DNA of 64,000 bases from Eledone cirrhosa (Eukaryota): assembly GCA_964016885.1 (NCBI GenBank), contig OZ024743.1, positions 319,734,001-319,798,000 on the forward strand, read 5' to 3'. Under the pieces are notes generated by a model. It was given only the letters and a program-made list of their open reading frames with translations. It searched no databases and was not told where the DNA came from. The position numbers and the translations under genes were made by a program. Shown here piece by piece: positions 3,689 through 32,789 of this stretch. Numbering within the stretch: position 1 is the first letter of the stretch; each line of letters begins with the position of its first letter.

Positions 3689-3889
<201 letters not shown>

Positions 3890-3890
<1 letters not shown>

Positions 3891-4260
3891 AAATGGAAAA
3901 AAATGAAATTTCATTTCTCACTCTTAGTACAGCTGATACTTAAATATAAGTATGTATACGTACATACATATATGTATACAGACGTACAGTAGTATGTATA
4001 TACATACATACATGCACACATAACACATATATATATATGTACGTATGGGTTTACCGAACATTTATTATAATGCTCGGTTTGTTTGTAAACAAACAACGCG
4101 AATTATTAGCCGTACAGTGTTCAGCAACCATCGTTGCCATTTTGTTCAACACTGACAAAGGAACGATGGACAAGTTTCTAGCTTATTAGCTGTCATCAGC
4201 ACCTTATACATTCCTGTCAGTTGATTGAACGTTTGAAAGTATATACTTTCCTTATGCATA
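3890..4260 (-). mobile_element. Diverged partial copy of retrozyme family A
   Basis: Colinear with 16763-17116 (CACTCTTAGTAC, CCGAACATTTATTATAATGCTCGG, GTTCAACACTGACAAAGGAACG, CTTATGCATA). Confidence 0.8.
4164..4204 (-). ncRNA. Minimal type-I hammerhead ribozyme
   Basis: Minus strand reads GGTG-CTGATGA-C-AGCT-AATA-AGCT-A-GAAA-CTTG-TC-CATC. Core conserved and stem I still pairs despite substitutions relative to 17029-17069. Confidence 0.75.
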
Positions 4261-4930
4261 TCTGCAACATCGTCAGTGCTATTATGTTCCTCCTCTTGTA
4301 TTGTATATTTACGCCATCTTTATTTAATCTGTTTACTTATTTATTTATTTATTTATTTTTGTCTTCTTCTCTACGCATGCGTTTGCGTTTGCGTGTGTGT
4401 ATAGTGTTTGGTGTGTGTTCGCGTTTGGGTGACTGTGTTTTGGTTATTGTATTCTATCTTAGTTTACTAGTGTGTGCTTATTGTGCTTGTGTATATATTT
4501 ATTTATATTTCCCTTAAGTCAGTATTGTTTGTTTAGCTTTGGCCTTCTAAACTTGCCTCTGTTTAACTTTGGCCTTCTAAGTTTTATTTCACTTGCCTCT
4601 CTGATTTGCCTATCTGCTGGGTCATTTTTATGTTTAGATATTATTTTATTTCTATGTTGTCTATGTTACCGTCATGTTGTTGTCTGGCGTGTTCGTATAG
4701 TACTGAACCGTTTTTTCATCCTTTTAGTTCCCCCCAGTGTTGGTCTATCCTTTCACCTATGCTACGATCTGTCTCGCCTATGTATGTTGTTGTCATGTTT
4801 CTGCAAGTACCCTCTGTACATCTTATGCTATAGACTACGTTTCTAGTTTTACAGTTTTTCCGGGGGTTTACTTTACATATAATACATTTGTTGATAAGTA
4901 TTCAACAGAGTTATGTCCATAACAGAGATG
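4261..4930 (-). mobile_element. Penelope-like GIY-YIG remnant with pseudo-LTR ending in a half hammerhead
   Basis: Minus-strand translation ~4900-4530: CIICK..CKTRNVVYSIRC..YIGETDRSIGERIDQH..VLYEHARQQH..DPADRQIREASEIKLRRPKLN, with a stop and frameshift. Downstream GCA-CTGACGA-TGTTGCAGA at ~4279-4261. Confidence 0.8.
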
Positions 4931-11904: not shown

Positions 11905-13602
11905 ATAATATATAAGATCAAAAGATGATTAAAAGAGTTCCATGTAATTTATTATGCGCATTTCAAAAACAAATATCATCATGCAATAATATTTGCGTTT
12001 TCATCAGATAAAATAGGAAGACATGATATGAGGGTTAAAAAACACTTGTGAATAGTGCAGTTTTGAATCAACATATGAAAAGTAGTTTTAGATTGATGTG
12101 TGATATTTTGAAAAAAAAATTTTGAGGGGGGGGGGTGTTGGAAAGGATGAAAAAGAGGAGGAGATGAGAGTAAAAAGTGGAGGGGGAGGAGTATAATGAA
12201 GAAGGATGAGATATGAGGAGAGATAGGTGATACAGAGAGAGAGAGATAGCTTTTATAACTGAGAAAAATATATTGTTTTACATAGAGAGGTTGAAAAACC
12301 GATGGAAGATAATGTATAAATTAAAAGAATTTGAAAATTAACGAAGAGAAAAATAATGTAAAGTTAAGGTTTGTATATTGAAGGGTTTAATAATATGTGC
12401 GATGAAAAGAAAATGTTAATATGTATTACGAATAATATTTAAGGGTTTAATAATATGTGCGATGGAAAGAAAATGTTAATATGTATTAAGAATAATATTT
12501 AAGGGTTTAATAATATGTGCGATGGAAAGAAAATGTTGATATGTATTATTAAAAAAAACAAAAGTAATGTAAGTAAGGATATATTGTGAGATGTGCATGA
12601 ATAAGTTAGATGAAAGGGAGAAAAAAATAATGAATTGAGGATGAATAATCTAACGTCAAAAAAATGTGTTTATGGCTCCACTTCCACCTCCTTTAAAGCT
12701 CGTCTTTATAATCATCATTCGTCTTTTAAATACCAACTTAAAAGAACCAACACGGCTCTCTCAGAACTCATATGGTCCTTGAAAGACAAAAATATTAAAT
12801 ATAACATCTCTTGGAAAAAGGTTTCTTCTGCTTCTACATACTTGAACAGTTCTCTATCCAAGACTTGCAATCTCTGTCTAAATGAAAAATTTACCATTAT
12901 ATCTAATTTAGATTCTATAATAAATAGACGCACTGACTTGTTTTCTCTCTGCTTGCATAAATTCCACAGAACATTCCACAAAGTATACAGCTAATATCCA
13001 ATACTTTATCAATTTAGAATCCTTTGCTCAAAGGCACATATATATATATATATATACTTCTTTAAAAATATACCCATCTTTCTACCTTATTTCAAAGTTA
13101 TTTATTATACATTATATAATACTTGTTACTCATTCTATATCACTCCTATTTATCACTTCCCTTTCTTCCTTTTCCTTTTTTCTTTTTCTTTTAATTTCTA
13201 ACACCTAATCTGTAACTTTTCTCACTGTGCCTAACATAGAAACAATTATTACACAATACAATATATTCTTACCTTATATCACCTTGAAAAAATCCTTCGT
13301 AAATATAAACACATTTTTTTTACGTTAGATTATTCATCCTCAATTCATTATTTTTTTCTCCCTTTCATCAAACTTATTCATGCTCATCTCACAATATATC
13401 CTTACTTACATTACTTTTGCTTTTTTTAATAATACATATCAACATTTTCTTTCCATCGCACATATTATTAAACCCTTAAATATTATTCTTAATACATATT
13501 AACATTTTCTTTTCATCGTACATATTATTAAACCCTTCAATATACAAACCTTAACTTTAACATTAACCTTAACATGGAACTCTTTTAACCATCTTTTGAT
13601 CT

Positions 13603-13610
<8 letters not shown>
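11905..13610 (+). mobile_element. 5'-truncated Penelope-like element: inverted pseudo-LTR, GIY-YIG 3' fragment, pseudo-LTR
   Basis: ORF 12635-12994 (YGSTSTSFKARLYNH..LSELIWSLKD..CNLCLNEK..CLHK). 12355-12660 is the reverse complement of ~13320-13560, and 11905-11945 of ~13572-13610. A 60-bp tandem unit occurs 3x in the left arm and 2x in the right. Confidence 0.85.
11947..12014 (-). ncRNA. Type-I hammerhead ribozyme in the inverted pseudo-LTR
   Basis: ATTTTAT-CTGATGA-[AAAC.CAAATATTATT..GATGATATTTGTTTTT]-GAAA-TGCGCA-TA-ATAAAT. Same architecture as 2408-2472. Confidence 0.8.
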
Positions 13611-13654
<44 letters not shown>

Positions 13655-14086
13655 TGTAGATTCTCGAGTTGTTTGGGGGTAACACAGTCAAAAACGGTAT
13701 TAATACTTTGGTAGAGTATGAGTATAGGCATCTTCATTATATATAGAAATTACTTCTACAGAACTAGAACTGTTTCATTCGGACATTACTGATGTTTTCA
13801 TACGAATGAAACTTCTAGTCATAGAAAAGTCATTTCTCTCTCCCTGTTGTTGTAATGACAGAATGGTTCATTCTATCATTACAACAAGCCTCGACAATGC
13901 AGATGGGTAAATCTCCGGGTAACAAGATCCGGTGGTGGAGAGAGAGATGTAAGTGGGTGTACGTTGAGATGCATGGCGTGTATAAGACTGTAGTGTGTAG
14001 AGGAATGAAGAAAAGAGCGTAAAGGATAAAAATAAAAATAAAAATAACAACACGAGATAGAGTTACCTTGGAAGAGATTTAATTGT

Positions 14087-14122
14087 CCCTATATATTTCG
14101 GATTCACATCCATCAACTGGGG
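14087..14122 (-). ncRNA. Hammerhead-like motif with variant core CAGUUGA
   Basis: CCC-CAGTTGA-T-GGAT-GTGA-ATCC-GAAA-TATA-TA-GGG. Confidence 0.55.
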
Positions 14123-14335
14123 GTTTTTCCGGGGGGGGGGTTGTCTGTCGGAAAGGTGCGAAACGTGTCCTCAGCTGTTCGTTGTTTTGAATATCTGAGG
14201 TATTCAGCAGAGCGCGTGTGCGCGTGAAATGGGGTCTGTCAAGCAGAGGTCAGCGGCCGAAGTAGTTCTTTCAATTGTGGCAGTGGGGTGGCGCTAGCTG
14301 TCAGTCGATAGTATTCTCTGCCTGTTTGGTGAATG

Positions 14336-14378
<43 letters not shown>

Positions 14379-15127
14379 GTAGTTGTCTCGCTTGAGTGTG
14401 TGTGTGCGTGTGTTGTTGCATTGTTCCTCTGTATTTGCAGTGTAGTATGTTCGTATGGTGGAATGCTACTGTGTGTCTGTGTGCGTGTGTTGCTGTCTCG
14501 CTTGTGTCTGTGCGTGCGTGTGTTGCTGCATCGTTTGTTAACTTAAACCAACCACCTCGACATCCACTTGGCCCACTCGAGCCCCTCCCTGCGAAGATGC
14601 CTCTCCAGGAAACCCGGGAAATCAACTGACGTGTGCTCCCTCAGAGACTGCCCGATGCGCCATGCGAACTGTTGCCTATGCACATACGTCGTGTATAAGA
14701 TAGAATGTAACAACTGCAACCAATACTATATAGGTAGCACAATCCGGCCGTTGCACATCCGGATCAAGGAGCACACTAACACCAGGGCCTCGTCTTTCCG
14801 GAAACACATAGCCAAATGCGGAAACAAAGACGGAAGGCCCATTGTCACAATTCTAGCGACAGAAAGAAACGTCGGCACATTACGTATCAAGGAAGCACTT
14901 TGGATCAAACGCCTAGGGCCACAATTAAACAACCGATCCGAGAGAAGCGAAATGAGGTGGTTGGTTTAAGTTAGCAAACGATGCAGTAACACACGCACAC
15001 ACACACAAGCGAGACCGCAACACACACACACACACAGTAGCATTCCACCATACGAACATACTACACTGCCAACACAGAGGAACAAGGCAACAACACACGC
15101 ACACACACACACACTCAAGCGAGACAA

Positions 15128-15174
<47 letters not shown>

Positions 15175-15387
15175 CATTCACCAAACAGGCAGAGAATACT
15201 ATCGACTGACCGCTAGCGCCACCCCACTACCACAATTGAAAGAACTACTTCGGCCGCTGACCTCTGCTTGACCGACCCCATTTCACGCGCGCTCTGCTGA
15301 ATACCTCAGATATTCAAAACAACGAACAGCGGAGGACACGTTTCGCACCTTTCTGACAGACAACCTCCCCCCCCCCCGGGAGAAAAA

Positions 15388-15423
15388 ACCCAGTTGATGG
15401 ATGTGAATCCGAAATATATAGGG
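15388..15423 (+). ncRNA. Hammerhead-like motif with variant core CAGUUGA (second arm)
   Basis: CC-CAGTTGA-T-GGAT-GTGA-ATCC-GAAA-TATA-TA-GGG. Confidence 0.55.
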
Positions 15424-15458
15424 ACAATTAAATCTCTCCCAAGGTAACTCTGTCTCGT

Positions 15459-15661
15459 GTTATTTTTATTTTTATTTTTATTTTTATTTTTATTTTTATT
15501 TTTATTTTTATTTTTATTTTTATTTTTATTTTTATTTTTATTTTTATTTTTATTTTTATTTTTATTTTTATTTTTATTTTTATTTTTATTTTTATTTTTA
15601 TTTTTATTTTTATTTTTATTTTTATTTTTATTTTTATTTTTATTTTTATTTTTATTTTTAT
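15459..15661. repeat. (TTTTTA)n hexanucleotide array
   Basis: About 200 bp of perfect repeat inside the right arm only. Confidence 0.95.
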
Positions 15662-16728: not shown

Positions 16729-16763
<35 letters not shown>

Positions 16764-17028
16764 AACGGAAAAAATGAAACGATATTTCATTTCCCACTCT
16801 TAGTACGGCTGTTACTTAAATATAAGTATGTACACGTACATACATATATGTATACCGACGTACAGTAGTATGTATATATATATATACATACATTCACACA
16901 TATATATGCACGTATGGATTCACCGAACATTTATTATAATGCTCGGTGTGTTTGTAAACAAACATCCCGTATTAAGCCGTAGTGTCTAGCAACCACCGTT
17001 GCTCGTTTGTTCAACACTGACAAAGGAA

Positions 17029-17069
17029 CGTTGTACTAGTTTCAAGCTTGTTAGCTATCGTCAGCAACG
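17029..17069 (-). ncRNA. Minimal type-I hammerhead ribozyme
   Basis: CGTTG-CTGACGA-T-AGCT-AACA-AGCT-T-GAAA-CTAG-TA-CAACG. Confidence 0.88.
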
Positions 17070-17586
17070 TATACCTTCCTGCCAGATTGTTGAACGTATA
17101 TACTTACCTTATGCATATTAACGGCTGAGTAGCCCAATTTGCATATCGAGTGGGTTAATCGGCCGGGTGCACCGAAAACAATAAACGGAAAAAATGAAAC
17201 GTTCCTTTGTCAGTGTTGAACAAACGAGCAACGGTGGTTGCTAGACACTAGGGCTTAATACGGGATGTTTGTTTACAAACAAACACACCGAGCATTATAA
17301 TAAATGTTCGGTGAATCCATACGTGCATATATATATGTGTGCATGTATGTATATCTATATGTATATACTACTGTACGTCGGTATACATATATGTATGTAC
17401 GTGTACATACTTATATTTAAGTAACAGCCGTACTAAGAGTGGGAAATGAAATATCGTTTCATTTTTTCCGTTTATCGTTTTCGGTGCACCCGGCCGATTA
17501 ACCCACTCGATATGCAAATTGGGCTACTCAGCCGTTAATATGCATAAGGTAAGTATATACGTTCAACAATCTGGCAGAAAGGTATA

Positions 17587-17627
17587 CGTTGCTGACGATA
17601 GCTAACAAGCTTGAAACTAGTACAGCG
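17587..17627 (+). ncRNA. Minimal type-I hammerhead ribozyme
   Basis: CGTTG-CTGACGA-T-AGCT-AACA-AGCT-T-GAAA-CTAG-TA-CAGCG. Predicted cleavage after A17622. Confidence 0.88.
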
Positions 17628-17890
17628 TTCCTTTGTCAGTGTTGAACAAACGAGCAGCGGTGGTTGCTAGACACTACGGCTTAATACGGGATGTTTGTTT
17701 ACAAACACACCGAGCATTATAATAAATGTTCGGTGAATCCATACGTGCATATATATATGTGTGCATGTATGTATATATATATATACATACTACTGTACGT
17801 CGGTATACATATATGTATGTACGTGTACATACTTATATATATATATATCTATATCTATATATAACAATAATAATAATAAAAATAATAATA

Positions 17891-18104
17891 GTTTCTTATA
17901 TAGGCACAAGGCCAGCTTTTTTGGGGAGGGGAAAGTCGATTAAATCGACCCCAGTGCGTGACTGGTACTTTATTTTATCGACCCCGTAAGGATGAAAAGC
18001 AAAGTTAACCTCGGCGGGATTTGAACTCAGACCATAAAGGGCTGTAGCTCTATGCTGCAAAGCATGCCGTCGGACTCTCTACCGATACTGCCAATCCACC
18101 GCCC
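17891..18104 (-). mobile_element. tRNA-derived SINE, long subfamily
   Basis: Full head, plus the extra GGGGTCGATTTAATCGACTTTCCCC segment. Flanked by (AAT)n. Confidence 0.9.
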
Positions 18105-18108
18105 TTAT

Positions 18109-18149
<41 letters not shown>

Positions 18150-18150
<1 letters not shown>

Positions 18151-18334
18151 TGTTTCTACTTTTGGCACAAGGCCAGCAATTATCCCAGTGCATTACTGGT
18201 ACTTTATTTTATCGACCCCGTAAGGATGAAAAGCAAAGTTAACCTCGGCGGGATTTGAACTCAGAATAGCAAGGGCCGTAACTCTATGCGTCAAAGCTTG
18301 GCGGCCGACTCTCTACCGATACTGCCAATCCACC
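18150..18334 (-). mobile_element. tRNA-derived SINE, short subfamily
   Basis: Same family as 1464-1651, embedded in (AAT)n. Confidence 0.9.
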
Positions 18335-18344
18335 ATAATAATAA

Positions 18345-20915
18345 TAAAGACTGGAAATAAAGTACAAAACTAGGAGGAAAAAGCTAAATATTATCATAGA
18401 GGAACTGAAGCAAAGTATTGTAGCAAAGAGTGCAAAGATTAGGCTGTATGAGAGCAGAGTCAGTCAGTATAGGCAGAACCGCATGTTTGACAACAACCAG
18501 AAGATGTGGTTTGGGCATCTTGAAAGGAAAGAAAGAGGCAACGACTTGATCCCTGAGGCAGAACAGACTAAGACATTCTGGAGAGGAATATGGGAGCATG
18601 ATGTTGAACATAATGATCAGGCAGTGTGGATTGAGACAGTACAAAAGGAGATTAGTGAACAAGCACACTAACAAACTGATTTAAGTATCACAGTTGAAAC
18701 TCTTAAAGAGCAGGCCAGAAAACTAACCAACTGGAAATCACCAGGCCCAGATGGTGTGCAGGGGTATTGGATTAAAAATATAACATCCCTCCACCTGAAA
18801 CTGACAACCATCTTCAATGACTGCTTGATGTCGGGTGAGGTACCAGATTGGTTGACAAAGGGTACCACAGTCCTGGTAATGAAAGACCGAATCAAGGGTA
18901 ATGATGTTACCAACTATAGACCTATCACATGTCTATCCGTAATGTGGAAGCTGTTAACAAGCATTGTGTCTGAGGAAATCTACCATCACCTCCACACAAA
19001 CAACTTGTTACCGGACGAACAGAAAGGATGCCGAAAGAAGTCCCGTGGTACAAAAGACCAGCTACTTATTGATAAGATGGTAATGAGGAATTGCAAGAGG
19101 AGACACACTGGTCTTGCCATGGGATGGATAGACTACAAAAAGGCATTCGACATGGTACCTCATTCTTGGATAACCAAAAGCCTAGAGATCTTCAAGGTGG
19201 CAGATAACATCAGACAGTTGTTGAGCAAAAGTATGAAGTCCTGGGAAAAAGAATTAACATCGGGTGGAGAATCCTTGGGAGGCGTGAAGATCAAGATCTG
19301 TTGTTTGTCCTTGCCCTGATACCCCTTACCATTATACTGCGAAAAGTGAGAACAGGATACAAGTTGGGAAAAGGAGAGCTTACCATCAACCACCTCCTCT
19401 TCATGGACGATCTTAAACTCTTTGGAAAGAATGAGAAGGAGTTGGATGTACTTGTTGACACTGTCCGTATTTTCAGCAGTGATATATGTATGCAATTTGG
19501 TATTAATAAGTGTGGAGTTCTAGTGATGAAGAGGGGTAAATTGAGCAGAAGCAACAGAATTCAGGTACCAACAGGTGAGATGATAAAGGAAATTGACACT
19601 GAAGAAGGATACAAATATTTAGGTGTTCTGGAGGCTGATGACATCAAGGACAAAAAAATGAAGGAATTGATAAGATCTGAGTACATTAGGAGAGTAAGGA
19701 GCGTATTAAAATCACGTCTAGATAGTAGGAATGTCATAAGTGCAGTGAATTCCCGAGCTGTGTCTATTATTAGGTACAGTGCTGGAATTCTGAAATGCAA
19801 TGTTGCTGAATAAAAAGAAATGGATAGGAAGACTAGGAAGCTATTGACTATCTACAACATGTTCCACAAAAGGAGTGATGTCGATAGACTCTACTTAAAG
19901 AGATCTGAAGGTAGAAGAGGTCTTATCAGCATAGAGGACTGTGTTCAGATGGAGAAAAACAACCTACACAAATACGCGACTGATAGTAGGGAGCCAATGC
20001 TCTGAATTGTACTGAAGGAGAGGACAATAGACCAGGGGATGCCCAAGGAGGAAATAACAACAAGGAGAAAGAGCAACCTTCATGAAAAATCCCTTCATAG
20101 TGCCTTCTTTGAGAAAACTGAATTTAGAGATCCACAGACATGGAACTGGTTGAAAAGAGGAGACCTTAAAAAAGCTACAGAAGGAATGCTAATGGCTGCG
20201 CAAGGGCAGGCCCTCAAAACGAAGTGGCTGAAACAGCATATTTACATGGAGGAGGCTAGTCCACTGTGTAGGATCTGTAGAGAGAGAGAGGAGACTGTGG
20301 CTCACATTGTATCCGAGTGTAAACACCTAGCCCAGACTCACTATAAAGGCTGGAAACATGATGTGATGGGCAGGGTGATTCACTGGCACCTATGCAAAGT
20401 AAAAAATTTCCCACATTCTGAGAAGTGGTATGAGCATAAGCTAGAGTCGGTGATGGAAAACGAACAGGTGAAGGTGCTGTGGGATTTTAGGATACAGACG
20501 GACAATAAACTAGAACACAATAGACCTGACCTGGTGGTTTTGGACGAGGGAAACAGATCGTGCCTGATTGTGGATGTAGCCTGCCCATTCGACACGAGAG
20601 TGCAAGAGAAGGAGAGGGAGAAAATTAACCGATACCAGGATTAAAGTGGGAGGTAAAACGGATTTGGAACTGCCATGAGGTCTAAGTGGTACAGATTGTC
20701 ATAGGCGCACTAGGTACTATCTCAAGGAGTTTCCAAGGATGGTTAAAGAAAATTGGTCCCGCCCCGCTTTTTGGAACATTTCAAAAGGCATGCTTGCTGG
20801 GAACAGCAAGAACCCTCCGATACGTCCTGAATATCTGAGGCTGCAGGTAGTGGCTTGATATTCATTTCAACAAACTTTCCAGTTAAATAACATCAATGAC
20901 TGAGACTCAAAGAAC

Positions 20916-20962
<47 letters not shown>
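18345..20962 (+). mobile_element. R4/Dong-like non-LTR retrotransposon (RT + CCHC + RLE), pseudogenised, with (AAT)n tail
   Basis: NYRPITCL, EQKGC, WIDYKKAFDMVPH and HLLFMDDLKLF, then CRIC..ETVAHIVSEC, RPDLVV, IVDVACPFD and EKINRYQD. Several stops. Confidence 0.92.
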
Positions 20963-20965
<3 letters not shown>

Positions 20966-21207
20966 TTTCTTTATTAACCACAAGGGTTTACATAAAGTAG
21001 ACATTAAGGACAGTACAGGACAATACAGGACGGTACAAATGGGCATTTCTGCGTGTAAAAAAAACAGAGGTTGAAATAAAATAACAAAGAAAAATTCCCC
21101 AATAGGGGGGAGACTTCCAAGGGACATTTGTGGAGAAAGCCCATTAAAAGACCACAGTGGCCCTGACCACCAGGGCAAGTGCCCTCTCCCAGTTTTCCAC
21201 CTTTAAT

Positions 21208-24200
21208 TTACAGACACATACTCAGAGAAGGCCCATTCATTCGGGCCATACTTGCTTCTCTCACCCATCTTTCAACAAAGTGCTGGGAAGAGAGCACTTC
21301 CCTCTCTACCCTGATTTTCCTTTTCAAATGAAATTTGAAAAAGTTAATCAGGGCATCACCGAAGAGGTAAGTGCTCGTCTTCAGCCCTTTCAAACGTGTC
21401 CACCATACTATCTCTTTCGCCATGGCCACCAGACAGATAAAAACTGCCTGCCCTTCCAGGCTAAAGGAAGGGGGCGGGGCAATCCTCACGATGGACTCAG
21501 CTGATAGCTGGATCCGTCCTACACGTGACAGCAGGTGTTCGACATAAACCCACAAGTCAGCAATGCTCGGACACTGGACGAGTGCGTGCAGGACGGTTTC
21601 GTCGCCCTGCGCGCATCTCGGACATGTCCGGCTGACGGCACCTCCATGCCTGTAGAGTTTATCCCGAACTGGCAAAGCTCCTCGGTAGCACTGCCAGGCC
21701 AGGGATTTCTGGAAGTTGTCCATAGGCCCCGGCCCGAAAGTCCTTCCGAAGAGATTGGCTAGTTGATTTTCGTCGACGCCTAGAGTTTCTCCAAGTACGT
21801 CGTCGCTCTTCCCCTCCACTAATCCCCTATAGAACGCCAAGGTGGAGTTTCCACCGATCACATTGCCCGATTGGTCGAGGGCTGTGAGCGCCTGAAGACA
21901 TTCCAGTCTCCAAGCGCTCCCTCTCGGTCTTCGCTTGACCCAGGACTGCAGCTCCGTCAAGGAGACGAGCTGGGGAAAAACGTGTCTTGCAAACGGCGAC
22001 CAGACCTGATCTCCGTCGAGGAAGAGGTGGAGATGTCGTAGCCTGAGCGCGTGTCTGCGCATCATCAGCCACGGCATGCCCAGCCCTCCACGTAGCGGGT
22101 GTTGACAGCAGATGGACCGCCTGACCATCGGAGCGCGTCCCTTCCACAAGAAGCGAAAGAGCAAACGCTCCAGCGCAGTCAGGCGGGGCTTAGGACAAGG
22201 TACGACGGTCAGGCGGTAGTAGATGACGGATGCGATGTACGCATTCGCCACCTCCGCTCGACCTTTCAGGGATAGCTTCCTCTCGGCCCATTTCTGGGTG
22301 AGAGAAGCCACCCTGCTCGTCACCTCGTCCCAGTTTTTGTCCGTCTGGAGGTCTGGACCGAACCAGACCCCTAGCAATTTAACCGGTCCGTACGTCCAGC
22401 GCCCGACGACGCTGTTGGACGGCATGGACCTGCCTCTCCAGGTGCCGAGCTGCAGGCCCACTGACTTTTCCTGGTTGATCATTGCTCCTGTCACTGCTTC
22501 GTATTCTCTTAGTGTAGTGCCGATCGCCTCGATGTGTTTGGCGTTCGACACCACTACGGTGACATCGTCGGCATATGCTGACACGGATCTTCCGCATCCT
22601 AGTTCGCGCGGGACTCCCCTCAACGTCTCCAGTTTGTGCAGTAATGGCTCGAGAGTCAATACGTACAATAGGGACGAGAGGGGACATCCTTGGCGGACCG
22701 AGCGCATGATGTTGAACGGTTCCGAAAGGTGACCGTTCACTCTCACTACAGAGCAGATGTCGCTGTGCATGGCAGCGATCCAGCCTCTGAAGACGGGCCC
22801 AAAGCCAGCCGCCCTCAGGACTGCCGTTAGGTAACGATGGTCGACCCTATCGAAGGCTTTCGACTAATCTAAATTGATCAAAGACCCACCCGTGCCAGGT
22901 TCCCTAGCTACCCTCTCTACGATGTATCGCATGAGGTGGAGGTTGTCGTGGATGGATCTGTCGGGAATGGCGCATGTCTGTGCCTCTCCCACCAGACCAC
23001 CAACGACAAGCGCCAACCTCTTTGCTAGCACCTTGGCCAAAATCTTGAACTCTGTGTTTAGCAGAGTTATGGGCCTAAAATTATCTATGTTATCCCCCTT
23101 GTTCGGATCCTTTCTCAGCAGCGCCACCGCTCCTCGGCTCACAGAGCTGGGAATTCTCCCGTTCTGTTGCCAGTTGCAGTAGACGTCCGCCAAGAGGCCC
23201 CCGAACAAGTTTGGCATTTGTACGTAAAGTTCATAGGGCAGACCATCCAAACCAGGCGATTTACCCCTTGTGCAACTAGTCATTGCATCCCGTACTTCAG
23301 CGGTTGTTATCGGCTTTTTGCAACACATCGCCTCAGTGGCCGAGAGCCGCGGCAGTCCGTCGAGGTAGACACTAAAGTCCATCCCTCGATCCGGCCCGCC
23401 ACTGCCCCTGAACAGTTGAGCGAAGTGTCGCTGAAAAGCTTCACACATTTGCCCGGGATCGAGTAGCATGCGCCCGTCTTGGTCCACCAAAGACCGGATC
23501 GTGGCTTTGTTTCCACGGCGCGCCTCCGCCACTCGGGCCCATTGAACGGCTTTCGTCCCCTCGTGTCTGAGAGCACGCACCATAGCTCTGACAACGCAGC
23601 CTTCGTGCTTTGCATTGAAGAATTGGTCAAGGGCCAATTTCGCTGCAAGTACGTCGGTCGCGATGCCTTTGCTAAGCGCCTCATCTAATTTTCTAACTAA
23701 TTCTCCCTCTGCTCTATTTTTCTCTATTGCTAAAGTCTTACTAAACCTAATGGACTCTATTCTAATTGCTCTTTTCAGAGCAAACCACCACTTGTTGTTG
23801 ACGATGGCCCCCGTCAACGCCCGCTTAACTAGTTCGCTAATCCGGTCTCTGTAGGCCTTGCGCGCTGGTAAGGACGCGTTTAGCTTCCAGTATCCGGGTC
23901 CTCGTCTATGAAGCCTATCTAAGTCAAGCACACAGATCACGAATTTGTGGTCCGTTTAGCTGACTATCTTGAATTGTGGACAGCCTATGCTAGACCTATC
24001 TATTTCCCTACAAAATACTCTATCTAGATATGATCTGGATGACCCTATGCGGTTTGTCCAAGTCCACATTGGCACATTCGGGAAATCCATTCGGTACCTG
24101 TCAGATAGTTCAAAACGCCTGAGCAGGTTGGTGAGGCTCTTGCACCCTCCACCCCTATCCGCTAATCCCACACAGTCCCAGCGTGCATCTAAGATCCCGT

Positions 24201-24627
24201 TCCAGTCGCCCACTAACACTAAAGAGCGGGACGTTCCAAGAAAGGTCTCCAGACGCCGGAAGAAATCAGGCCGCCGTGCTCCTGTCGGGGCATAGACGGC
24301 CACTAGCCTGAAAGCTTGCCCGTCTCCGCTGGTCACGTCCAGCACCACCAACTTACCTTCTGGGTCCAGGAAGATGGCCCGTATGGCGAGATCCAAACCT
24401 CTCCGAAAAAGCACAGCAACTCCTCCACCCGATCCAGGACGGCTGGGAGATGCGTACACATCGTAGCCGCCGAAGATCGGTGCGAAGGCCCGTGCTTCGG
24501 AGATTCTGGTCTCGCTGATGGCCACTACATCTATGTTTAGTGACCTGAGGTCGTTGAGCAGGTGACCCTGCTTCCATGACGACCCCAAGCCACGCGCATT
24601 TATGCTGCCTATTCTGAGTGAGGTCAT
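21208..24627 (-). pseudogene. Tx1-like ORF2 (APE endonuclease, RT, zinc finger), single frame with two nonsense codons
   Basis: SINARGL, ISET, LVGDWN, SYLDR, GKSPGLDG, RQGCPLS, AYADD, CPRC..ETVLHALVQC. The three ORF-track segments are in frame, split by TAA at ~23956 and TAG at ~22864. Confidence 0.93.
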
Positions 24628-24662
24628 GTTTAAAATAGAGTGGAAAAGATGGGAAAGACCAC

Positions 24663-26767
24663 TTACCGTACTTTTGGTAGAGGAGGGATGGTTTTTACAT
24701 CCCTTTTCACTTGATCGTCTGGTGAAGGGACCGTTGAATCGTCCCTTCGGCTGGTCGTCGGCTCTTCTAATAGAATGTCTGAATATACTCTTCGATTGAT
24801 GGTTCCTCCTAGGTCCCTGAAATCACCAACTGCGTTGGGGAATTTCGTTTTAATGTTTGTGTATTGTTTCTGTGCTATTTTTAGCAGTCTTATGTTAGTT
24901 GGCGTTTTGATTGGTGCTGGTATTATGTAGTCCTGTTGTGAAATGTCTGTGTGTTCAATTATGTAAGTCATTAGTTTCTTGTTGTGTGTGTTTATTGCCG
25001 TGCATTTGTTTTTCTGGGGGTGGGGTGTGGTTCTGCTATTTTCTTGTCGTTGTTGCTGGGTGTGTGTGTTTTGTTGTTGTGTTTGCGATGTTGGTGCTTG
25101 TGGTGGTGGTGTTGAAGGTGTTGTTGGCGGTGGGGTTGTCGCCGGTGGTGATGGTGGTGCTGGTGTGGGTGGTGATGGTGTTGGTGGTGTTGCTGCTGTG
25201 GGTCTCTTTGCAGTAGACTTTACCCTTTTCTCATTTCTTTCCTCCCTTTTCAAAGGCGACGATGCGCTGCTTCTGCGTTTGTGCCTTCTTGCGACCTTTT
25301 GCCATCCCTCTCCCACCTCACACTCCATGTCTGATTCTGTGAGGTCGGGGAGGGGTACCAGCTCCACTCTTTCACTTGTTGTTGTTGGTGATGTTTGCAC
25401 TGGAGTCTCTGTTGCAGCTGCATTTGGTATTGCTGTTGTTGTTGTTAATATTTCCACTGCTGCTGCTGTTTTTGATTTCCGTGGAGTGGGTATGGGTGCC
25501 ACGGACCTATCGTTCCTGGTTGCCGCTTGTCCTGTTTCTGGTAGCCGTGGAGCCGGATTCGGAACGAGGGGGGTTTCTCCTTTCTCAGGGTCTTCTCGTT
25601 GCAGAAGGCCCTGAGGTGAGTCTTCGATCCACAGCGAAAGCATTTCGGGCGTTTGCCCTCAACACTTATGGGCAGTTGAGTGCCGTTATCGAAGTCTATC
25701 ACATCCGGGATAGCTTCGATGCACTCCTGGTTGGTTTGGATTAGCATCTCAATGGAGGAGCCGACCCAATCTTCTCTTACTTTTTTCTGTACTTGCAGTA
25801 CAGTTCTTTTGTCCTCGATTCCGACGAGGACAGACGCGGCCAGCCAAGAAGGGGTCATTCCGGGGGGGACGTGGGTCAGTTTGACCCTCACAATTTTTTG
25901 CCCGCAGTAGGAGGGCACCAACACCATTTCCTCGCTCCTTAGGGTCACTACTGATTGGGCCTTTGCCTCCTGGGGTGTGGCAAAAAGTACGTCTACGGTG
26001 GCATATTTTTTGCCTCGGGTGATGTGCGTTTTCCGCTGCCACACAGACCCCAAGGCTTTTTGTATTTGGGCCTCTGTGGCTCTTTCCACCCTACGGGATT
26101 TTGTACTTACTGTACGGTACGTGACCGTACAGTGCTCTTGGGTTTCGAAAAATTTTTCCGCTGCCTTGCAGATTGCTCGGTGTCCGTTCTTTGTCACCAT
26201 CTTCTTCGCTTCCTCTAATTCCTCATTTGTTATGAGGATTGTTTCCAAGTTTTTCGCAATACCTGCAAATGAGATTGGTTTTTCTCTGCTGCTGCTGCTG
26301 TTATTGTTGTCGTCAGAGCTGCTGGTACTTTTGTTGTTGCTGCAGGTACTACGACTACTGCCTCCGCCGCTGTTGCTGTGGTTGTTGTTGGTGTTGCTGC
26401 TGCTAATGCTGTTGTTGTTTATGCTGCTGGTGATGCTGTTGCGGCTGCTACTGTTGTTTTCATTGTCACTGTTGCTGTTGTTATTACGGCTGCTACTGCT
26501 ATTATTCCTGACGTCAGACGAATGAACTGGGTTTTCGTATTTCCCGCACACCTGTTTCGTCGCTGTCGTCGTCGTCGTGGAGAAACCTTGCACGCTTTGC
26601 ACGAGACTTTTCTTTTCTTTCGTCACTTGCGAAAGAGAAGGGAGGGAGAGAGACACATTTAAAGAAGGGAGGGAGAGAGACAATCTTCTCTCTGCTGTAG
26701 TGATGATTGAGGAAGAAGAAGACGGAATGAGTGGGAGTGACGTATGGAATTTCTTTTTCGTAGCCAT
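24663..26767 (-). pseudogene. Tx1-like ORF1 (Asn/Ser-rich N-terminus, CCHC knuckle, Pro/Thr-rich tail), one frameshift
   Basis: ISFAGIAK, VEGKRPKCFRCGSKTHLRAFC and GWQKVARR across ORFs 25445-26767 and 24663-25643. Confidence 0.85.
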
Positions 26768-27000
26768 GTTGTTTTTTGTTTAAAATGAAATTTTGGGTAC
26801 AAAACCCCAATAACTGGTTATTTAACCCCGAAGGGCCAAATAACGGACAGAAAGACCCCTCTCACGAGGAGGAGGGTGTCTTTATCAACAATTTGGTTCA
26901 AGTTTTAAACAATTTACAATTGTTTTAACGGTTAAAAATTACTATACCTTACAGAGCCGAGCCTCCGTCAACCATGGCATTCAATAATAATAATAATAAT

Positions 27001-30000
27001 GATTTTTTTATTAACCACAAAGGTTTACATAAAGTAGACATTAAGGTCAGTGCAGGACAATACAGGGCGGTACAAATTGGCATTTCTGCGTGTAAAAAAC
27101 AAAAACAGAGGATGTAACAAAAAATAACAATGAAAAATTCCCCAATAGGGGAAGACTTCGGAGGGACATTTGTGGAGAAAGCCCAGTAAAAGGCCACAAT
27201 GACCCTGACCACCAAGGCAAGTGCCCTCTCCCAGTTTTCCACCTTTAATTTACAGATATATACTCAGAGTAGGCCCATTCACTCGGGCCATTATTGCTTC
27301 TCTCACCCATCTTTCAACAAAATGCTGGGAAGAGAGCACTTCCCTCTCTACTCTGATTTTCCTTTTCAAATGAAATTTGAAAAAGTCAATCAGAGCATCA
27401 CCGAAGAGGTAAGTGCTCGTCTTCAGCCCTTTTAAACGTGTCCACCATACTATCTCTTTCGCCATGGCCACCAGACAGATAAAAACTGCCTGCCCTTCCC
27501 GGCTAAAGGAGGAGGGCGGGGCAATCCTCACGATGGACTCAGATGATAGCCGGATCCGTCCTAAACGCGACAGCAGGTGTTCGACATAAACCCACAAGTC
27601 AGCAATTTTCGGACACTGGACGAGTGCGTGCAGGACGGCAGGACGGTTTCGTAGCCCTGCGCGCATCTCGGACATGCCAGGCTGACGGCACCTCCATGCC
27701 TGTAGAGTTTATCACGAACTGGCAAGGTTCCTCGGCAGCACTGCCAGGCCAGAGATTTCTGGAAGTTGTCCATAGGCCCCGGCCCGAAAGTTCTTCCGAA
27801 GAGATTGGCTAGTTGATTTTCGTCGACGCCTAGAGTTTCCCCAAGTACGTCGTCGCTCTTCCCCTCCACTAATCCTCTATAGAACGCCGATGTGGAGTTT
27901 CCACCGATCACATTGCCCGATTGGTCGAGGGCTGTGAGCGCCTGAAGACATTCCAGTCTCCAGGCGCTCCCTCTCGGTCTTCGCTTAACCCAGGACTGCA
28001 GCTCCGTCAAGGAAACGAGCTAGGGAAATACGTGTCTAGCAAACGGCGACGACACCTGATCTCCGTCGAGGAAGAGGTGGAGATGTCGTAGCCTGAGCGC
28101 GTGCCTGCGCATCATCAGCCACGGCATGCCCAGCCCTCCACGTAGCGGGTGTTGACAGCATATGGACCGCCTGACCATCGGAGCGCGTCCCTACCACAAA
28201 AAGCGAAAGAGCAAACGCTCCAGCGCAGTCAGGCGAGGCTTAGGATAAGGTACGACGGTCAGGCGGTAGCAGATGACAGACGCGATATACGCGTTAGCCA
28301 CCTCCGCTCGACCTTTCAGGGATAGCTTCCTCTCCGCCCATTTCTGGGTGAGAGAAGCCACCCTGCTCGTCACCTCGTCCCAGTTTTTGTCCGTCTGGAG
28401 GTCCGGACCGAACCAGACCCCTAGCAATTTAACCGGTCCGTCCGTCCAGCGTCCGACGACGCTGTTGGACGGCATGGACCTGCCTCTCCAGGTGCCGAGC
28501 TGCAGGCCCACTGACTTTTCCTGGTTGATCATTGTTCCTGTCACCGCTTCGTATTCTCTTAGTGTAGTGCCGATCGCCTCGATGTGTTTGGCGTTCGACA
28601 CTACTACGGTGACATCGTCCGCATATGCTGACACGGATCTTCCGTATCCTAGTTCGCGCGGGACGCTCCTCAACGTCTCCAGTTTGTGCAGTAATGGCTC
28701 GAGAGTCAATACGTACAAGAGGGACTAGAGGGGACATCCTTGGCGGACCGAGCGCATGATGTTGAACGGTTCCGACAGGTGACCGTTCACTCTCACCACA
28801 GAGCAGATGTCGCTATGCATGGCAGCGTTCCAGCCTCTGAAGACGGGCCCAAAGCCAGCCGCCCTCAGGACTGCCGCTAGGTAACGATGGTCGACCCTAT
28901 CGAAAGCTTTCGACTGATCTAAATTGATCAAGGACCCACCCGTGCCAGGTTCCCTAGCTACCCTCTCTACGATGTATCGCATGAGGTGGAGGTTGTCGTG
29001 GATGGATGTCGGGAATGGCGCATGTCTGTGCCTCTCCCACCAGACCACCAACGACAAGTGCCAACCTCTTTGCTAGCACATTGGCCAAAATCTTGAACTC
29101 TAGCAGAGTTATGGGCCTGAAATTATCTATGTTATCCCCCTTGTTCGGATCCTTTCTCAGCAGTGCCACCGCTCCTCGGCTCACAGAACTGGGAATTCTC
29201 CCGTTCTGTTGCCAGTTGCAGTAGACGTCCGCCAAGAGGCCTCCGAACAAGTCTGGTATCTGTACGTAAAGTTCATAGGGCAGACCCTCCAAACCAGGCG
29301 ATTTACCCCTTGTGCAGCCAGTCATTGCCTCCTGTACTTCAGCGGCTGTTATCGGCTTTTCGCAACACTTCGCCTCAGTGGCCGAGAGCCGCGGCAGTCC
29401 GTCGAGGTAGACACTAAAGTCCATCCCTCGTTCCGGCCCACCGCTGCCCCTGAACAGCTGTGCGAAGTGTCGCTGAAAAGCTTCACACATTTGCCCGGGA
29501 TCGAGTAGCATGCGCCCGTCGTTGTCCACCAAAGACCGGATCGTGGCTTTTTTGCCATGACGCGCCTCCGCCACTCGGGCCCATTGAACGGCTTTCGTCC
29601 CCTCGTGTCTGAGAGCACGCACCCTTGCGCTGACAACGCAGCCTTCGTGCTTTGCATTAAAGAATTGGTCAAGGGCCAATTTCGCCACAATGACGTCAGT
29701 CGCAATGCCTTTGTTAAGCGCCTCGTCTAATTTTGTAACTAGTTCTCCCTCTGCTCTATTTTTTTCTATTGCTAATGCCTTACTAAACCTAATCGATTCT
29801 ATTCTAATCGTTCTTTTCAGAGCAAACCACCACTTGTTGTTGACGATGGCCCCCGTCAACGCCCGCTTAACTAGTTCGCTAATCCGGTCTCTCTAGACCT
29901 TGCGCGCTGGTAAGGACGCGTTTAGCTTCCAGTAGCCGGGTCCTCGTCTATGAAGCCTATCTAAGTCAAGCACACATATCACGAATTTGTGGTCCGTGTA

Positions 30001-32765
30001 GCTGACTATCTTGAATTGTGGACAGCCTATGCTAGACCTATCTATTTCCCTACAAAATACTCTATCTAGATATGATCTGGATGACCCTATGCGATTTGTC
30101 CAAGTCCACATTGGCACATTCGGGAAATCCAATCGGTACCTGTCAGACAGTTGAAAACGCCTGAGCAGGTTGGTGAGGCTCTTGCACCCTCCACCCCTAT
30201 CCGTTAATCCCACACAGTCCCAGCGTGCATCTAAGATTCCGTTCCAGTCGCCCACTAACACTAAAGAGCGGGACGTTCCAAGAAAGGTCTCCAGACGCCG
30301 GAAGAAATCAGGCCGCCGTGCTCCTGTCGGGGCATAGACGGCCACTAGCCTGAAAGCTTGCCCGTCTCCGCTGGTCACGTCCAGCACCACCAACTTACCT
30401 TCTGGGTCCAGGAAGATGGCCCGTATGGCGAGATCCAAACCTCTCCGAAAAAGCACAGCTGGGAGATGCGTACACATCGTAGCCGCCGAAGATCGGTGCG
30501 AAGGCCCGTGCTTCGGAGGTTCTGGTCTCACTGGTGGCCACTACATCTATGTTTAGTGACCTGAGGTCGTTGAGCAGGTGGCCCTGCTTCCATGACGACC
30601 CCAAGCCACGCGCATTTATGCTGCCTATTCTGTGTGAGGTCATGTTGAAATGGAGTGGAAAAGATGGGAAAGACCACTTACCTTACTTCTCGTAGAGGAA
30701 GAACGGTTTCTCCATCCTTTTCACTGCTTGAGGCCTCCTCAGGAAGGATGTCCTTATAAATCCTCCTGGAGAGTGTTTGTCGGAATTCTCCGATGTCTTT
30801 GGGGAATTTTTGTTTTAGTTTTCTGTGTGATGCGAGTGATTTGTATGTGTGGAGGTTGTGTGAACTTTTGGGTTGTGTGTAGTCCTTTTCTGTGATGCTG
30901 GTTTTGTGTTGGATGTAGTGTAATAATTGGTTGTTGTTCAAATTTAATGCTGTGTAGTGTGTATCGTTTTGGTTGTTTTGTTTGTGTTTGTTGTGGGTTT
31001 GTTTCTGTTTCGCTTTTTGGTGTCTTTTGTGGTGTAGGAGATGGTGGTGTTGGGGTTAATGATGGTGATGGTGTTGGTGTTTGGGGTGATGGGGTTGGTG
31101 ATGCTGGTGTAACTTTTTTGTTTGATAGTTTATTTGTTTCCCTTTGTATTTTGTTTTTGGAGGGGGAAGGAAGAGAATTTTTTCTTTTTTGGTTTCTTTT
31201 TTTCTTTTTTTCTGATACCGTTTCCCACTCCTCGTCGTCACAATCTGTCTCCAGTTGTGATAGGCCGGGGTGTTAGTTTTGGTTGTGGCGTGGTGGATGG
31301 TGTAGGCGCTGGTGTTAGTTCTGGCGCGTTGGGTGGTGGTAGTGTTGGTTTTGCTACTGTTGCTGGGGTTGTTGCTGTTACAGTTGCTTCTGTTGTTGCT
31401 GCTACAGTTGTTGCTGCCATCTCTGCTGCTGGTGGTGTTGATGGTTGAGTCATTGGGGTGGGTAGGAGAGGTGGCCTCAACCTTTTAGCCTGAGGGCAGA
31501 AAGCCCTTAGGTGGGTTCCTTCACCACAAACGACACACCTAGGTCTTCTGCCCTCGACAATTACGTTGAGGTGGCTGCCGTCAGTGAGGTCTATTACCTC
31601 TGAAATCTCAATGCTTTTTTGGTCCGCTTGGATCAGGAGCTCCATCCCAGATCCGGACCAGTTCTCCTGCTTTTCTTTCGCTATTTCGATTATCTTGGTG
31701 TTGGCTTCGATGCCGGCGAGGACGGCAGCTATTAGCCAGGGAATTTCGATGGACTGTGGAACGTGGGTGACCCTGATCTTTACGAGTCTCTGGCCACAAT
31801 AGCTTGGGACGAATGTGAAGTCGTCACTTCTTAATGGGGCCATGGAGTGTTCTCTAGCCTCCTGTGGTGTTTCAAAGAACACGTCCACGGTTCCATACTT
31901 CTGCCCACGTATTATGTGGGGTTTTTTTGCCCACACATGTCCCAAAGCTTTTTGGATTTGGGACTCGGATGCCCGTTCCACTCGGCATGATTTTATATTA
32001 ATTGTTCGATAAGACACGGTGCATAGGCGCCGATGCTCCATTTTATTAGGTGTGTGTGGGGGGGGGGAGGCTGACCCTGTATCCATCTTTCTTTACCATT
32101 TTTTTGGATTCTTCTAATTCCTCCTGAGTTACCTGAAATGCTTCGCACTGTTTTGCTACTCTGGCAAAACTCAGGGTGCTTTTCTTAATGTCATTGTTGC
32201 TGTTGTTGTTATCGTTATTTTTGTTGTTATTAATTTTAGTTTCAGTTGTGGTGGTGGTGGCGTCAGTGGTGTTCAGTGTGGAAGAGTTCATTTTGGTTGA
32301 ATTCATTTCGATATCACGAGTTAATTTATTTTTTCTTTTGTTTCTGTTGTCGCGGTGGTGGTGGGGGGGGGGGGGTTGTCGCGGTGGTGGTGGTTGTGGC
32401 GGCTTTAACACCTGCAGTCATTGGTAATGGTGGGAAATGAATGTCTGCCTGAGACAAATTTAAAATATTGCTACTGCCTATATTTTTAGTGTTGGCAAAC
32501 GTAGTAATATTTACAATGGTGGTGTCGGTGTGAGGTGTTAGTTTGTGATGAGTCAGCCATGATTTTTCAAAGAAAATTTTTGTTTGATAATTATAAAAGT
32601 TTAAATTTTGGGCTCAAGGCCCCAATCTTTTTGGGTGTCCTTTTCAGATAACAATGTATGTCCACTTATATACAGTTAATAATAAAAATTTTCCATGAAT
32701 GGCAATTTTAAACAACTGAAAATAACAAACGTTTGCGGATGATACGATTTACTACGTAGGTCGCC
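27001..32765 (-). mobile_element. L1/Tx1-clade LINE (copy 2), tandem with copy 1, frameshifted
   Basis: ORF2 ~30643-27250 is nearly identical to copy 1. ORF1 ~32560-30678 has VEGRRPRCVVCGEGTHLRAFC. (AAT)n on both sides. Confidence 0.92.
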
Positions 32766-32789
32766 AATAATAATAATAATAATAATAAT

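What the first reader, a model, noticed from the sequence alone, without database searches (positions are those of the whole stretch)
16763..17836. Retrozyme insertion that starts at its own hammerhead cleavage site and folds back
Seen: a non-coding ~420-425-nt unit with a minimal type-I hammerhead. The plus-strand copy begins at 17198 (AACGTTCCTTTG), one base inside the predicted 3' cleavage product (TA^CAACGTTCC). It runs one full unit to the next cleavage site (17622), then about 210 nt more into (TA)n. An inverted, differently permuted full unit (16763-17201) is joined through an AACG microhomology. Known: non-LTR retrozymes are tandem hammerhead-bearing units that form circular RNAs, and PLE insertions show partial tandem and inverted 5' ends. 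Inference: a self-cleaved (circular or multimeric) RNA was reverse-transcribed by PLE machinery into a TA microsatellite. The near-identical copies suggest a recent event.
Basis: partly seen in the sequence, partly recalled or inferred. Interest (0 to 1): 0.85.

Follow-up and report, generated by a model that had tools for sequence, protein, structure and literature searches.

The report
Two-armed Penelope-type hammerhead retrozyme insertion
This is one of thousands of copies of a small non-coding jumping repeat with a predicted self-cutting RNA motif; its start beside the cut site is most likely chance, but the family's back-to-back arms, and a sister copy that repeats the same editing-like A-to-G changes six times, suggest that a Penelope-type enzyme likely copies the RNA, at times a circle, from both sides of a DNA break.

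Summary
The anatomy is real: a ~420-nt hammerhead-bearing unit in two head-to-head arms between (TA)n tracts. The headline inference fails. In 438 arms, 5' ends fall within 5 nt of the cleavage site 13 times (10.4 expected), and copying stops there no more often than elsewhere (14/527 passes, 2.7%, vs 3.0%). The 3' ends are what is fixed: two sites 56-59 nt apart, one arm at each in 126 of 158 complete two-armed insertions, both at the same site in 2. That is the Penelope-like (PLE) 'tail' footprint. Tandem units within an arm are often clonal, and sister locus L272 carries the same eight A-to-G changes in all 5-6 units and nowhere else in the assembly, best read as rolling reverse transcription of one edited circular RNA; L381 points to a multimeric template instead. 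Verdict: new member of a known kind (animal non-LTR retrozyme / non-autonomous PLE), with genomic support for a proposed but unshown copying step. Cleavage, circles and the driver enzyme are untested. The scan noted this family, the two-end rule and editing scars before on other DNA.

The parts
16729..16763 (.). left (TA)n target tract
16761..17201 (-). inverted arm, unit position 253 through one full unit to position 273 (long, 'tailed' 3' end)
   Evidence: 21-nt direct repeat D14
16761..16819 (-). terminal 56-59-nt tail, the segment between the two fixed 3' ends; predicted to hold a stem-loop
17028..17070 (-). type I hammerhead motif, predicted cleavage between 17034 and 17033 (rare CAACG variant)
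17198..17201 (.). head-to-head junction, 2-4 nt microhomology
   Evidence: overlaps of 2 nt or more at 97 of 170 family junctions
17198..17838 (+). direct arm, unit position 2-6 through one full unit (426 nt) to position 214-217 (short 3' end)
17586..17628 (+). type I hammerhead motif, predicted cleavage between 17622 and 17623
17839..17862 (.). right (TA)n target tract, partly degenerate
3889..4261 (-). older copy of the same family (78-84% identity), ending at the tailed 3' end in (TA)n
4255..4889 (-). 3' part of a GIY-YIG PLE-type element fused to that older copy through 7 nt of microhomology inside the PLE's own hammerhead
   Evidence: 78% to the element in L328

Best explanation
This is one insertion of a young, multi-thousand-copy, non-coding ~420-nt hammerhead repeat whose two head-to-head arms end at two fixed sites in (TA)n, and it was likely written into the genome by a borrowed Penelope-like reverse transcriptase-endonuclease priming from both sides of a break, on an RNA that was continuous across the ribozyme site. 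Shown from sequence: two fixed 3' ends, one per arm; scattered 5' ends joined mostly by microhomology; arms that cross the cleavage site freely; both arms drawn from the same template lineage. Inferred: the enzyme nicks both strands of (TA)n, one active site starts at position 273 and the other at 214-217, and the two cDNAs are joined head to head. Inferred, less firmly: the template is in some events a monomeric circle made by dimeric hammerhead cleavage and ligation (L272 and other clonal arrays) and in others an uncleaved multimer (L381); some templates were A-to-I edited. The start of this locus's plus arm beside the cleavage site is likely coincidence.
For: Two-end rule: 74 of 98 complete pairs (14 of 19 among loci picked by internal sequence) and 52 of 60 in an independent set; same-end pairs 2 of 158; p 5e-35 among the 128 classifiable pairs. 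Even arms of a few dozen bases follow it (by eye). The rule holds in several loci of an older 80-85% subfamily. End-plus-TA patterns match 444, 2,412 and 1,399 times. No stop at the site: 14 of 527 passes vs 3.0% in 18 control windows; 106 of 388 arms cross it twice. Rare variants shared by opposite arms 98 of 679 vs 746 of 56,875 for same-haplotype arms of other loci. Adjacent full units identical 44 of 90 vs 8 of 464 between loci. L272: 8 of 9 variants A-to-G, each in every unit covering it, p 4e-8, 1e-4 after 232x12 tests, haplotype found only there (6 of 6 matches). Palindromic mirror test: 417 A-to-G in 49 loci vs 416 T-to-C in 26 (p 0.011, 0.019 without the two seed loci). Literature: a PLE protein cuts and extends both strands and starts at two internal sites that define the tail (PMC11167929); tail at one end of inverted PLE insertions (PMC3846280, PMC8557442).
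Against: No RNA evidence was obtained and cleavage is untested; 8 of 9 Xenopus retrozyme dimers did not cleave in vitro (10.64898/2026.07.22.740005), and this motif lacks G10.1-C11.1. The driver PLE is not identified: no shared terminal sequence was found with the element in L328. Family-wide A-to-G excess disappears when counted once per locus without lineage variants (107 vs 109); without L272 the 417G loci show 25 vs 16 (p 0.21); only 2 of 11 multi-copy 417G loci are clonal. Stepwise or periodic variants in L054, L175, L148, L299, L304 and unit-specific changes in L381 do not fit a monomer circle. 30 of 158 pairs have one or both ends elsewhere. This locus's own units differ at several sites, so a circle is not shown for it.
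Confidence: 0.65

Rival explanations
1. All insertions come from uncleaved linear multimeric transcripts of genomic arrays; the hammerhead and circles play no part in mobilisation.
For: No stop at the cleavage site; L381 units carry different A-to-G changes; structured heterogeneity in several arms; in vitro PLE insertion does not need ribozyme cleavage (PMC11167929).
Against: L272 repeats one set of eight A-to-G changes in all units including both partial end units, with no source copy in this assembly; stem I keeps its wobble pair through a double change (U.G to G.U) between subfamilies while the core is kept, which suggests selection on the ribozyme.
Confidence: 0.2
2. One reading: at this locus the RT ran off the 5' end of a self-cleaved RNA and then folded back.
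For: The plus arm can be read as starting at unit position 2; the rare CAACG in the minus arm makes a 4-nt homology plausible.
Against: 13 of 438 5' ends within 5 nt of the site, 10.4 expected; 7 at positions 1-6, 6.3 expected. The arms start at different unit positions, so it is no fold-back.
Confidence: 0.07
3. Clonal arrays arise after insertion by DNA-level tandem amplification and homogenisation, so they say nothing about an RNA circle.
For: Higher-order patterns in L184 and L054, steps in L175 and L337; long arrays exist.
Against: In L272 both terminal partial units share the changes, so the first insert would already need two identically edited copies, or gene conversion; opposite arms share rare variants, which unequal crossover within one arm does not give.
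Confidence: 0.1
4. The unit is just the pseudo-LTR of a coding PLE, or the inversion is an assembly artefact.
For: PLE-like coding sequence lies within 700 nt upstream of 4 of 139 free 5' ends (the 139 include overlapping fetches of the same locus). No read bridging this junction was shown.
Against: Those four join three or more different RT families at different points; none of 37 odd 3' ends runs into an ORF; 170 head-to-head junctions of the same build occur across the assembly; contigs of public runs list joints between the two orientations at other positions.
Confidence: 0.04

Closest known systems
Metazoan non-LTR retrozymes (Cervera and de la Pena 2020, PMC7229834: passages and Discussion read; Li, Clavereau and Pollet 2026, 10.64898/2026.07.22.740005: parts 1-3 of 5 read)
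   Same: Non-coding 150-1000-nt tandem unit, one type I hammerhead per unit, low GC, thousands of dispersed copies, proposed PLE mobilisation through a circular RNA template.
   Different: Those texts describe head-to-tail repeats; in the parts read they give no end maps, no head-to-head two-arm rule and no genomic test of the circular template, which they propose. Circles and cleavage were shown there, not here.
EN+ Penelope-like elements and their tail (Arkhipova 2013, PMC3846280, passages; Craig 2021, PMC8557442, passages; Frangieh 2024, PMC11167929, parts 1-2 of 4)
   Same: Partial tandems, inverted 5'-truncated arm, tail at one end only, (TA)n targeting, two RT start sites, both strands extended, hammerhead in the repeat.
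   Different: No ORF; tail of 56-59 nt rather than 30-40; the tail is called optional there, whereas here one-short/one-long is near strict (126 vs 2); self-priming was proposed for the inversions (PMC3846280), but true fold-backs are only 12 of 105 junctions here.
Canonical metazoan type I hammerhead versus PLE min-HHR (Cervera and De la Pena 2014, PMC4209133, passages)
   Same: Helix I 6 bp, II 4 bp, III 1-2 bp with palindromic loop, expected to work as a dimer.
   Different: U.U (C.A in the older subfamily) at 10.1-11.1 instead of G-C; no long helix II as in min-HHRs.
L1 twin priming (recalled, not read) and APOBEC-edited retrotransposon copies (PMC2873906, passages)
   Same: Second-strand priming gives an inverted 5' arm; clustered same-type changes fossilise an editing enzyme's action.
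   Different: Here the second priming site is fixed, not random; the clusters are sense-strand A-to-G, the ADAR type, not G-to-A.

Membership tests
metazoan non-LTR retrozyme | short non-coding tandem unit with a type I hammerhead in each unit | tested here: met
metazoan non-LTR retrozyme | dispersed multi-copy family with dimers and multimers | tested here: met
   6,545 matches, tandem spacing 420-429; arms up to 8.5 units
metazoan non-LTR retrozyme | hammerhead core and helices conserved under selection | tested here: inconclusive
   core kept and one double change in stem I between subfamilies; the 10.1-11.1 pair is non-canonical; the pattern itself required the core
metazoan non-LTR retrozyme | self-cleavage in vitro | not testable with these tools
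   needs a transcription assay
metazoan non-LTR retrozyme | expressed as circular monomer RNA | tested here: inconclusive
   no RNA run available to test; indirect support from L272 and clonal arrays
non-autonomous PLE (insertion footprint) | two fixed 3' ends separated by a tail, tail at one end only | tested here: met
non-autonomous PLE (insertion footprint) | 5' truncation, partial tandems and inverted head-to-head arm | tested here: met
non-autonomous PLE (insertion footprint) | AT-rich or (TA)n target | tested here: met
   flanks of 3' ends in loci picked by internal sequence
non-autonomous PLE (insertion footprint) | terminal sequence shared with an autonomous partner | tested here: inconclusive
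   none found against the element in L328 or L148; three fusions with two GIY-YIG/RT families seen; no genome-wide search of PLE families
autonomous PLE | RT plus GIY-YIG ORF between the repeats | tested here: not met
PLE min-HHR (PMC4209133) | no helix III/loop 3, long helix II, G10.1-C11.1 | tested here: not met

The most novel reading that the evidence does not exclude
A Penelope RT dimer grips one retrozyme RNA at two fixed sites, primes from both strands of a TA break and rolls round a ribozyme-made circle; ADAR marks fossilised identically in every turn (L272) are a direct genomic record of rolling-circle retrotransposition of an edited circular RNA in an animal germline, and editing of the palindromic stem III (position 417) is how the circle's ribozyme is switched off.
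Probability: 0.4. Interest if true: 0.78.

Novelty: new member of a known kind. Interest (0 to 1): 0.52.

Why it matters
How PLEs make their inverted insertions, and whether retrozyme circles are really the templates for new copies, are both left open in the papers read (PMC8557442, PMC7229834, PMC11167929). This family gives exact predictions: two priming sites 56-59 nt apart used one per strand, no stop at the ribozyme site, and editing marks that tell a circle (same marks every turn) from a linear multimer (different marks). These can be tested with a short synthetic RNA and a purified PLE protein, and the editing-mark test can be run on any animal genome with retrozymes.

Tried and rejected
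1) 5' ends at the cleavage site: not enriched. 2) A peak of 5' ends at unit 380-400, read as a transcription start (27 of 284, p 0.001): noted before new loci were fetched and not replicated (9 of 154, 7.7 expected, p 0.36); dropped. 3) Family-wide A-to-G excess (270 vs 144): vanishes when non-independent copies are removed; L143 (4 of 4) does not survive correction, and a T-to-C-rich locus (L090, 4 of 6) also exists. The 5'-neighbour bias of edited sites (15 of 16 after U or A) is post hoc; edited sites are not more often paired in the predicted circle (0.41 vs 0.52). 4) Expression: no RNA holder listed. 5) Read support: short contigs neither bridged nor contradicted this junction; the test on L272 was uninformative because its flank is itself a high-copy repeat. 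6) Rfam: only AT-rich miRNA-hairpin matches below gathering score. 7) Pfam did not recognise 13 of 15 nearby ORF fragments; two were placed by Atlas look-alikes only (HTH_animal 28%, GIY-YIG 19% of members of the first hits). 8) Driver identification by shared ends failed. 9) A dimeric hammerhead was not recovered as such by simple cofolding; the isolated motif folds no better than shuffles (z -0.65), while the whole unit does (z -8.6), largely through its TA-rich hairpin.

Full report
Observation. The locus is as described in outline. Numbering the unit from the first base after the predicted cut, the minus arm (16761-17201) runs from position 253 through a whole unit to 273, and the plus arm (17198-17838) from position 2-6 through a whole unit to 214-217. 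Each ends in (TA)n and holds one hammerhead motif. The motif has helices of 6, 4 and 2 bp with a palindromic loop 3, the canonical metazoan type I layout in PMC4209133 (passages), but with U.U at 10.1-11.1. The junction letters AACG all belong to the inverted arm; most family members read CAGCG after the cut (235 of 245), so the plus arm's start is uncertain by four bases.

Family. The window lies in a 3.0-Gb animal assembly; I infer a cephalopod from its repeats (recalled) and from earlier scan notes, and did not test this. A 26-mer of the unit matches 6,545 times and an older subfamily pattern 1,140 times. I parsed 220 fetched loci as a first set and 110 as an independent set. Overlapping fetches were collapsed by junction sequence, and hits under 88-90% identity or under 40 nt were dropped; a few duplicates may remain. 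Most loci were picked by one 3' end, so only the partner end and the 5' ends are free measurements.

The headline claim fails. 5' ends within 5 nt of the cut: 8 of 284 and 5 of 154 (6.8 and 3.7 expected). Of 527 passes through the site, 14 stop there (2.7%) against 3.0% in control windows; 296 of 388 complete arms cross it once or more and 106 twice. The template was therefore not a cleaved linear monomer. A second apparent peak at 380-400 did not replicate.

What is ordered. 3' ends lie at two sites 56-59 nt apart (41 of 54 ends in loci picked by internal sequence). In two-armed insertions one arm takes each site: 74 of 98 and 52 of 60; both short 2, both long 0, the rest have an end elsewhere (p 5e-35). 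Junctions overlap by 2 nt or more in 97 of 170 cases. Opposite arms share rare variants ten times more often than matched arms of other loci (98 of 679 vs 746 of 56,875; conversion between arms could add to this). This is the PLE footprint: a tail at one end of inverted insertions (PMC3846280, PMC8557442, passages) and two internal RT start sites with both strands extended in vitro (PMC11167929, parts 1-2 of 4). The unit is not the repeat of one coding PLE. Three fusions with GIY-YIG/RT elements were seen (L207; L328; window 4255-4889); they fit template switching in a shared machinery but also deletion between neighbouring insertions, and do not name the driver.

Circle or multimer. Adjacent full units in young arms are identical in 44 of 90 cases against 8 of 464 between loci. 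L272 has 5.8 units; 8 of its 9 variants outside the TA-rich part and outside five subfamily sites are A-to-G on the sense strand, each in every unit that covers it (corrected p 1e-4); its units differ only by one CpG change and one TA slip, and the haplotype occurs nowhere else in the assembly. An older-haplotype locus, L381, has 9 of 11 variants A-to-G and shares five sites with L272, but its two units differ in three to four of them. In the palindrome ACTAGT, A-to-G occurs in 49 loci and the mirror T-to-C in 26. I read this as A-to-I edited templates: a monomeric circle copied round in L272, a multimer in L381. Against: the family-wide excess disappears once non-independent copies are removed, the 417G set is not significant without L272 (23 of its 49 loci examined), several arms show stepwise variants, and no RNA was available. 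Repeat-directed A-to-I editing is known in coleoids (PMC9068888, abstract and passages). For the window's own locus the units differ at several sites, so the template form is undecided.

Comparison and novelty. It works like, and by every feature testable here belongs with, animal non-LTR retrozymes, now argued to be non-autonomous PLE derivatives (10.64898/2026.07.22.740005, parts 1-3 of 5). The circular template is proposed, not shown, in PMC7229834 (passages and Discussion; its supplementary model figure and the preprint's supplements were not seen). Nine full-text searches (listings only, except the papers named) showed no paper with a strict two-end rule or edited clonal retrozyme arrays; the library lacks most subscription journals. 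Earlier scan notes, read after these analyses, report this same family and the two-end rule on other DNA, and editing scars in another family; they are not independent evidence.

Verdict. Observation largely real, headline inference rejected, element of a known kind. Its worth lies in the family-level footprint and in L272, which make the PLE inversion mechanism and the circular-template step testable. Interest 0.52.

Noticed in passing
L272:2097-4549 (G000:C2:78934746-78937198): 5.8-unit array with the same eight or nine sense-strand A-to-G changes in every unit, including one in the hammerhead's palindromic stem III and two in loop/stem II; unique in the assembly.
   Followed up: yes
L381:1238-1958, L376:1297-1863, L143:608-1228, L337:415-3417: Further A-to-G-rich copies with recurrent sites (54, 97, 102, 382, 384, 406, 417) on different haplotype backgrounds.
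   Followed up: partly
L328:415-2395: Mixed head-to-head insertion: a retrozyme arm with the short end joined directly to the 3' part of a GIY-YIG PLE-type element, which also ends at its short end in (TA)n.
   Followed up: partly
L207:603-3218: Retrozyme arm joined in the same orientation into the endonuclease region of a Neptune-like element (label recalled from its Cys-motif linker) that has an inverted terminal repeat at the far end.
   Followed up: partly
window 11913-13604: Head-to-head insertion of another PLE-type family (the one in L148), with 60-bp internal repeats and its own hammerhead with a long helix II, between (TA)n tracts; about 90 nt between its left end and the TA tract may be a long tail.
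   Followed up: partly
window 3889-4889: Old retrozyme copy fused through 7 nt of microhomology to the middle of a PLE-type element's hammerhead.
   Followed up: partly
G000:C1:49584259-49588576 and 53354832-53366544: Long arrays of the unit; the first shows alternating 420/422 spacing, the second irregular spacing; a period-2 variant pattern also in L054.
   Followed up: no
window 14004-15506: A 1.5-kb inverted-repeat structure with (TG)n-rich arms ending in a (TTATTT)n tract; not the hammerhead unit.
   Followed up: no
window 17900-18347: Two copies of a ~190-nt SINE-like repeat that is very common around the fetched loci.
   Followed up: no
window 18400-34500 and 57458-62160: Several broken LINE-type elements (RVT_1, zf-RVT, AP endonuclease, PHD hits); the window is almost all mobile DNA.
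   Followed up: partly
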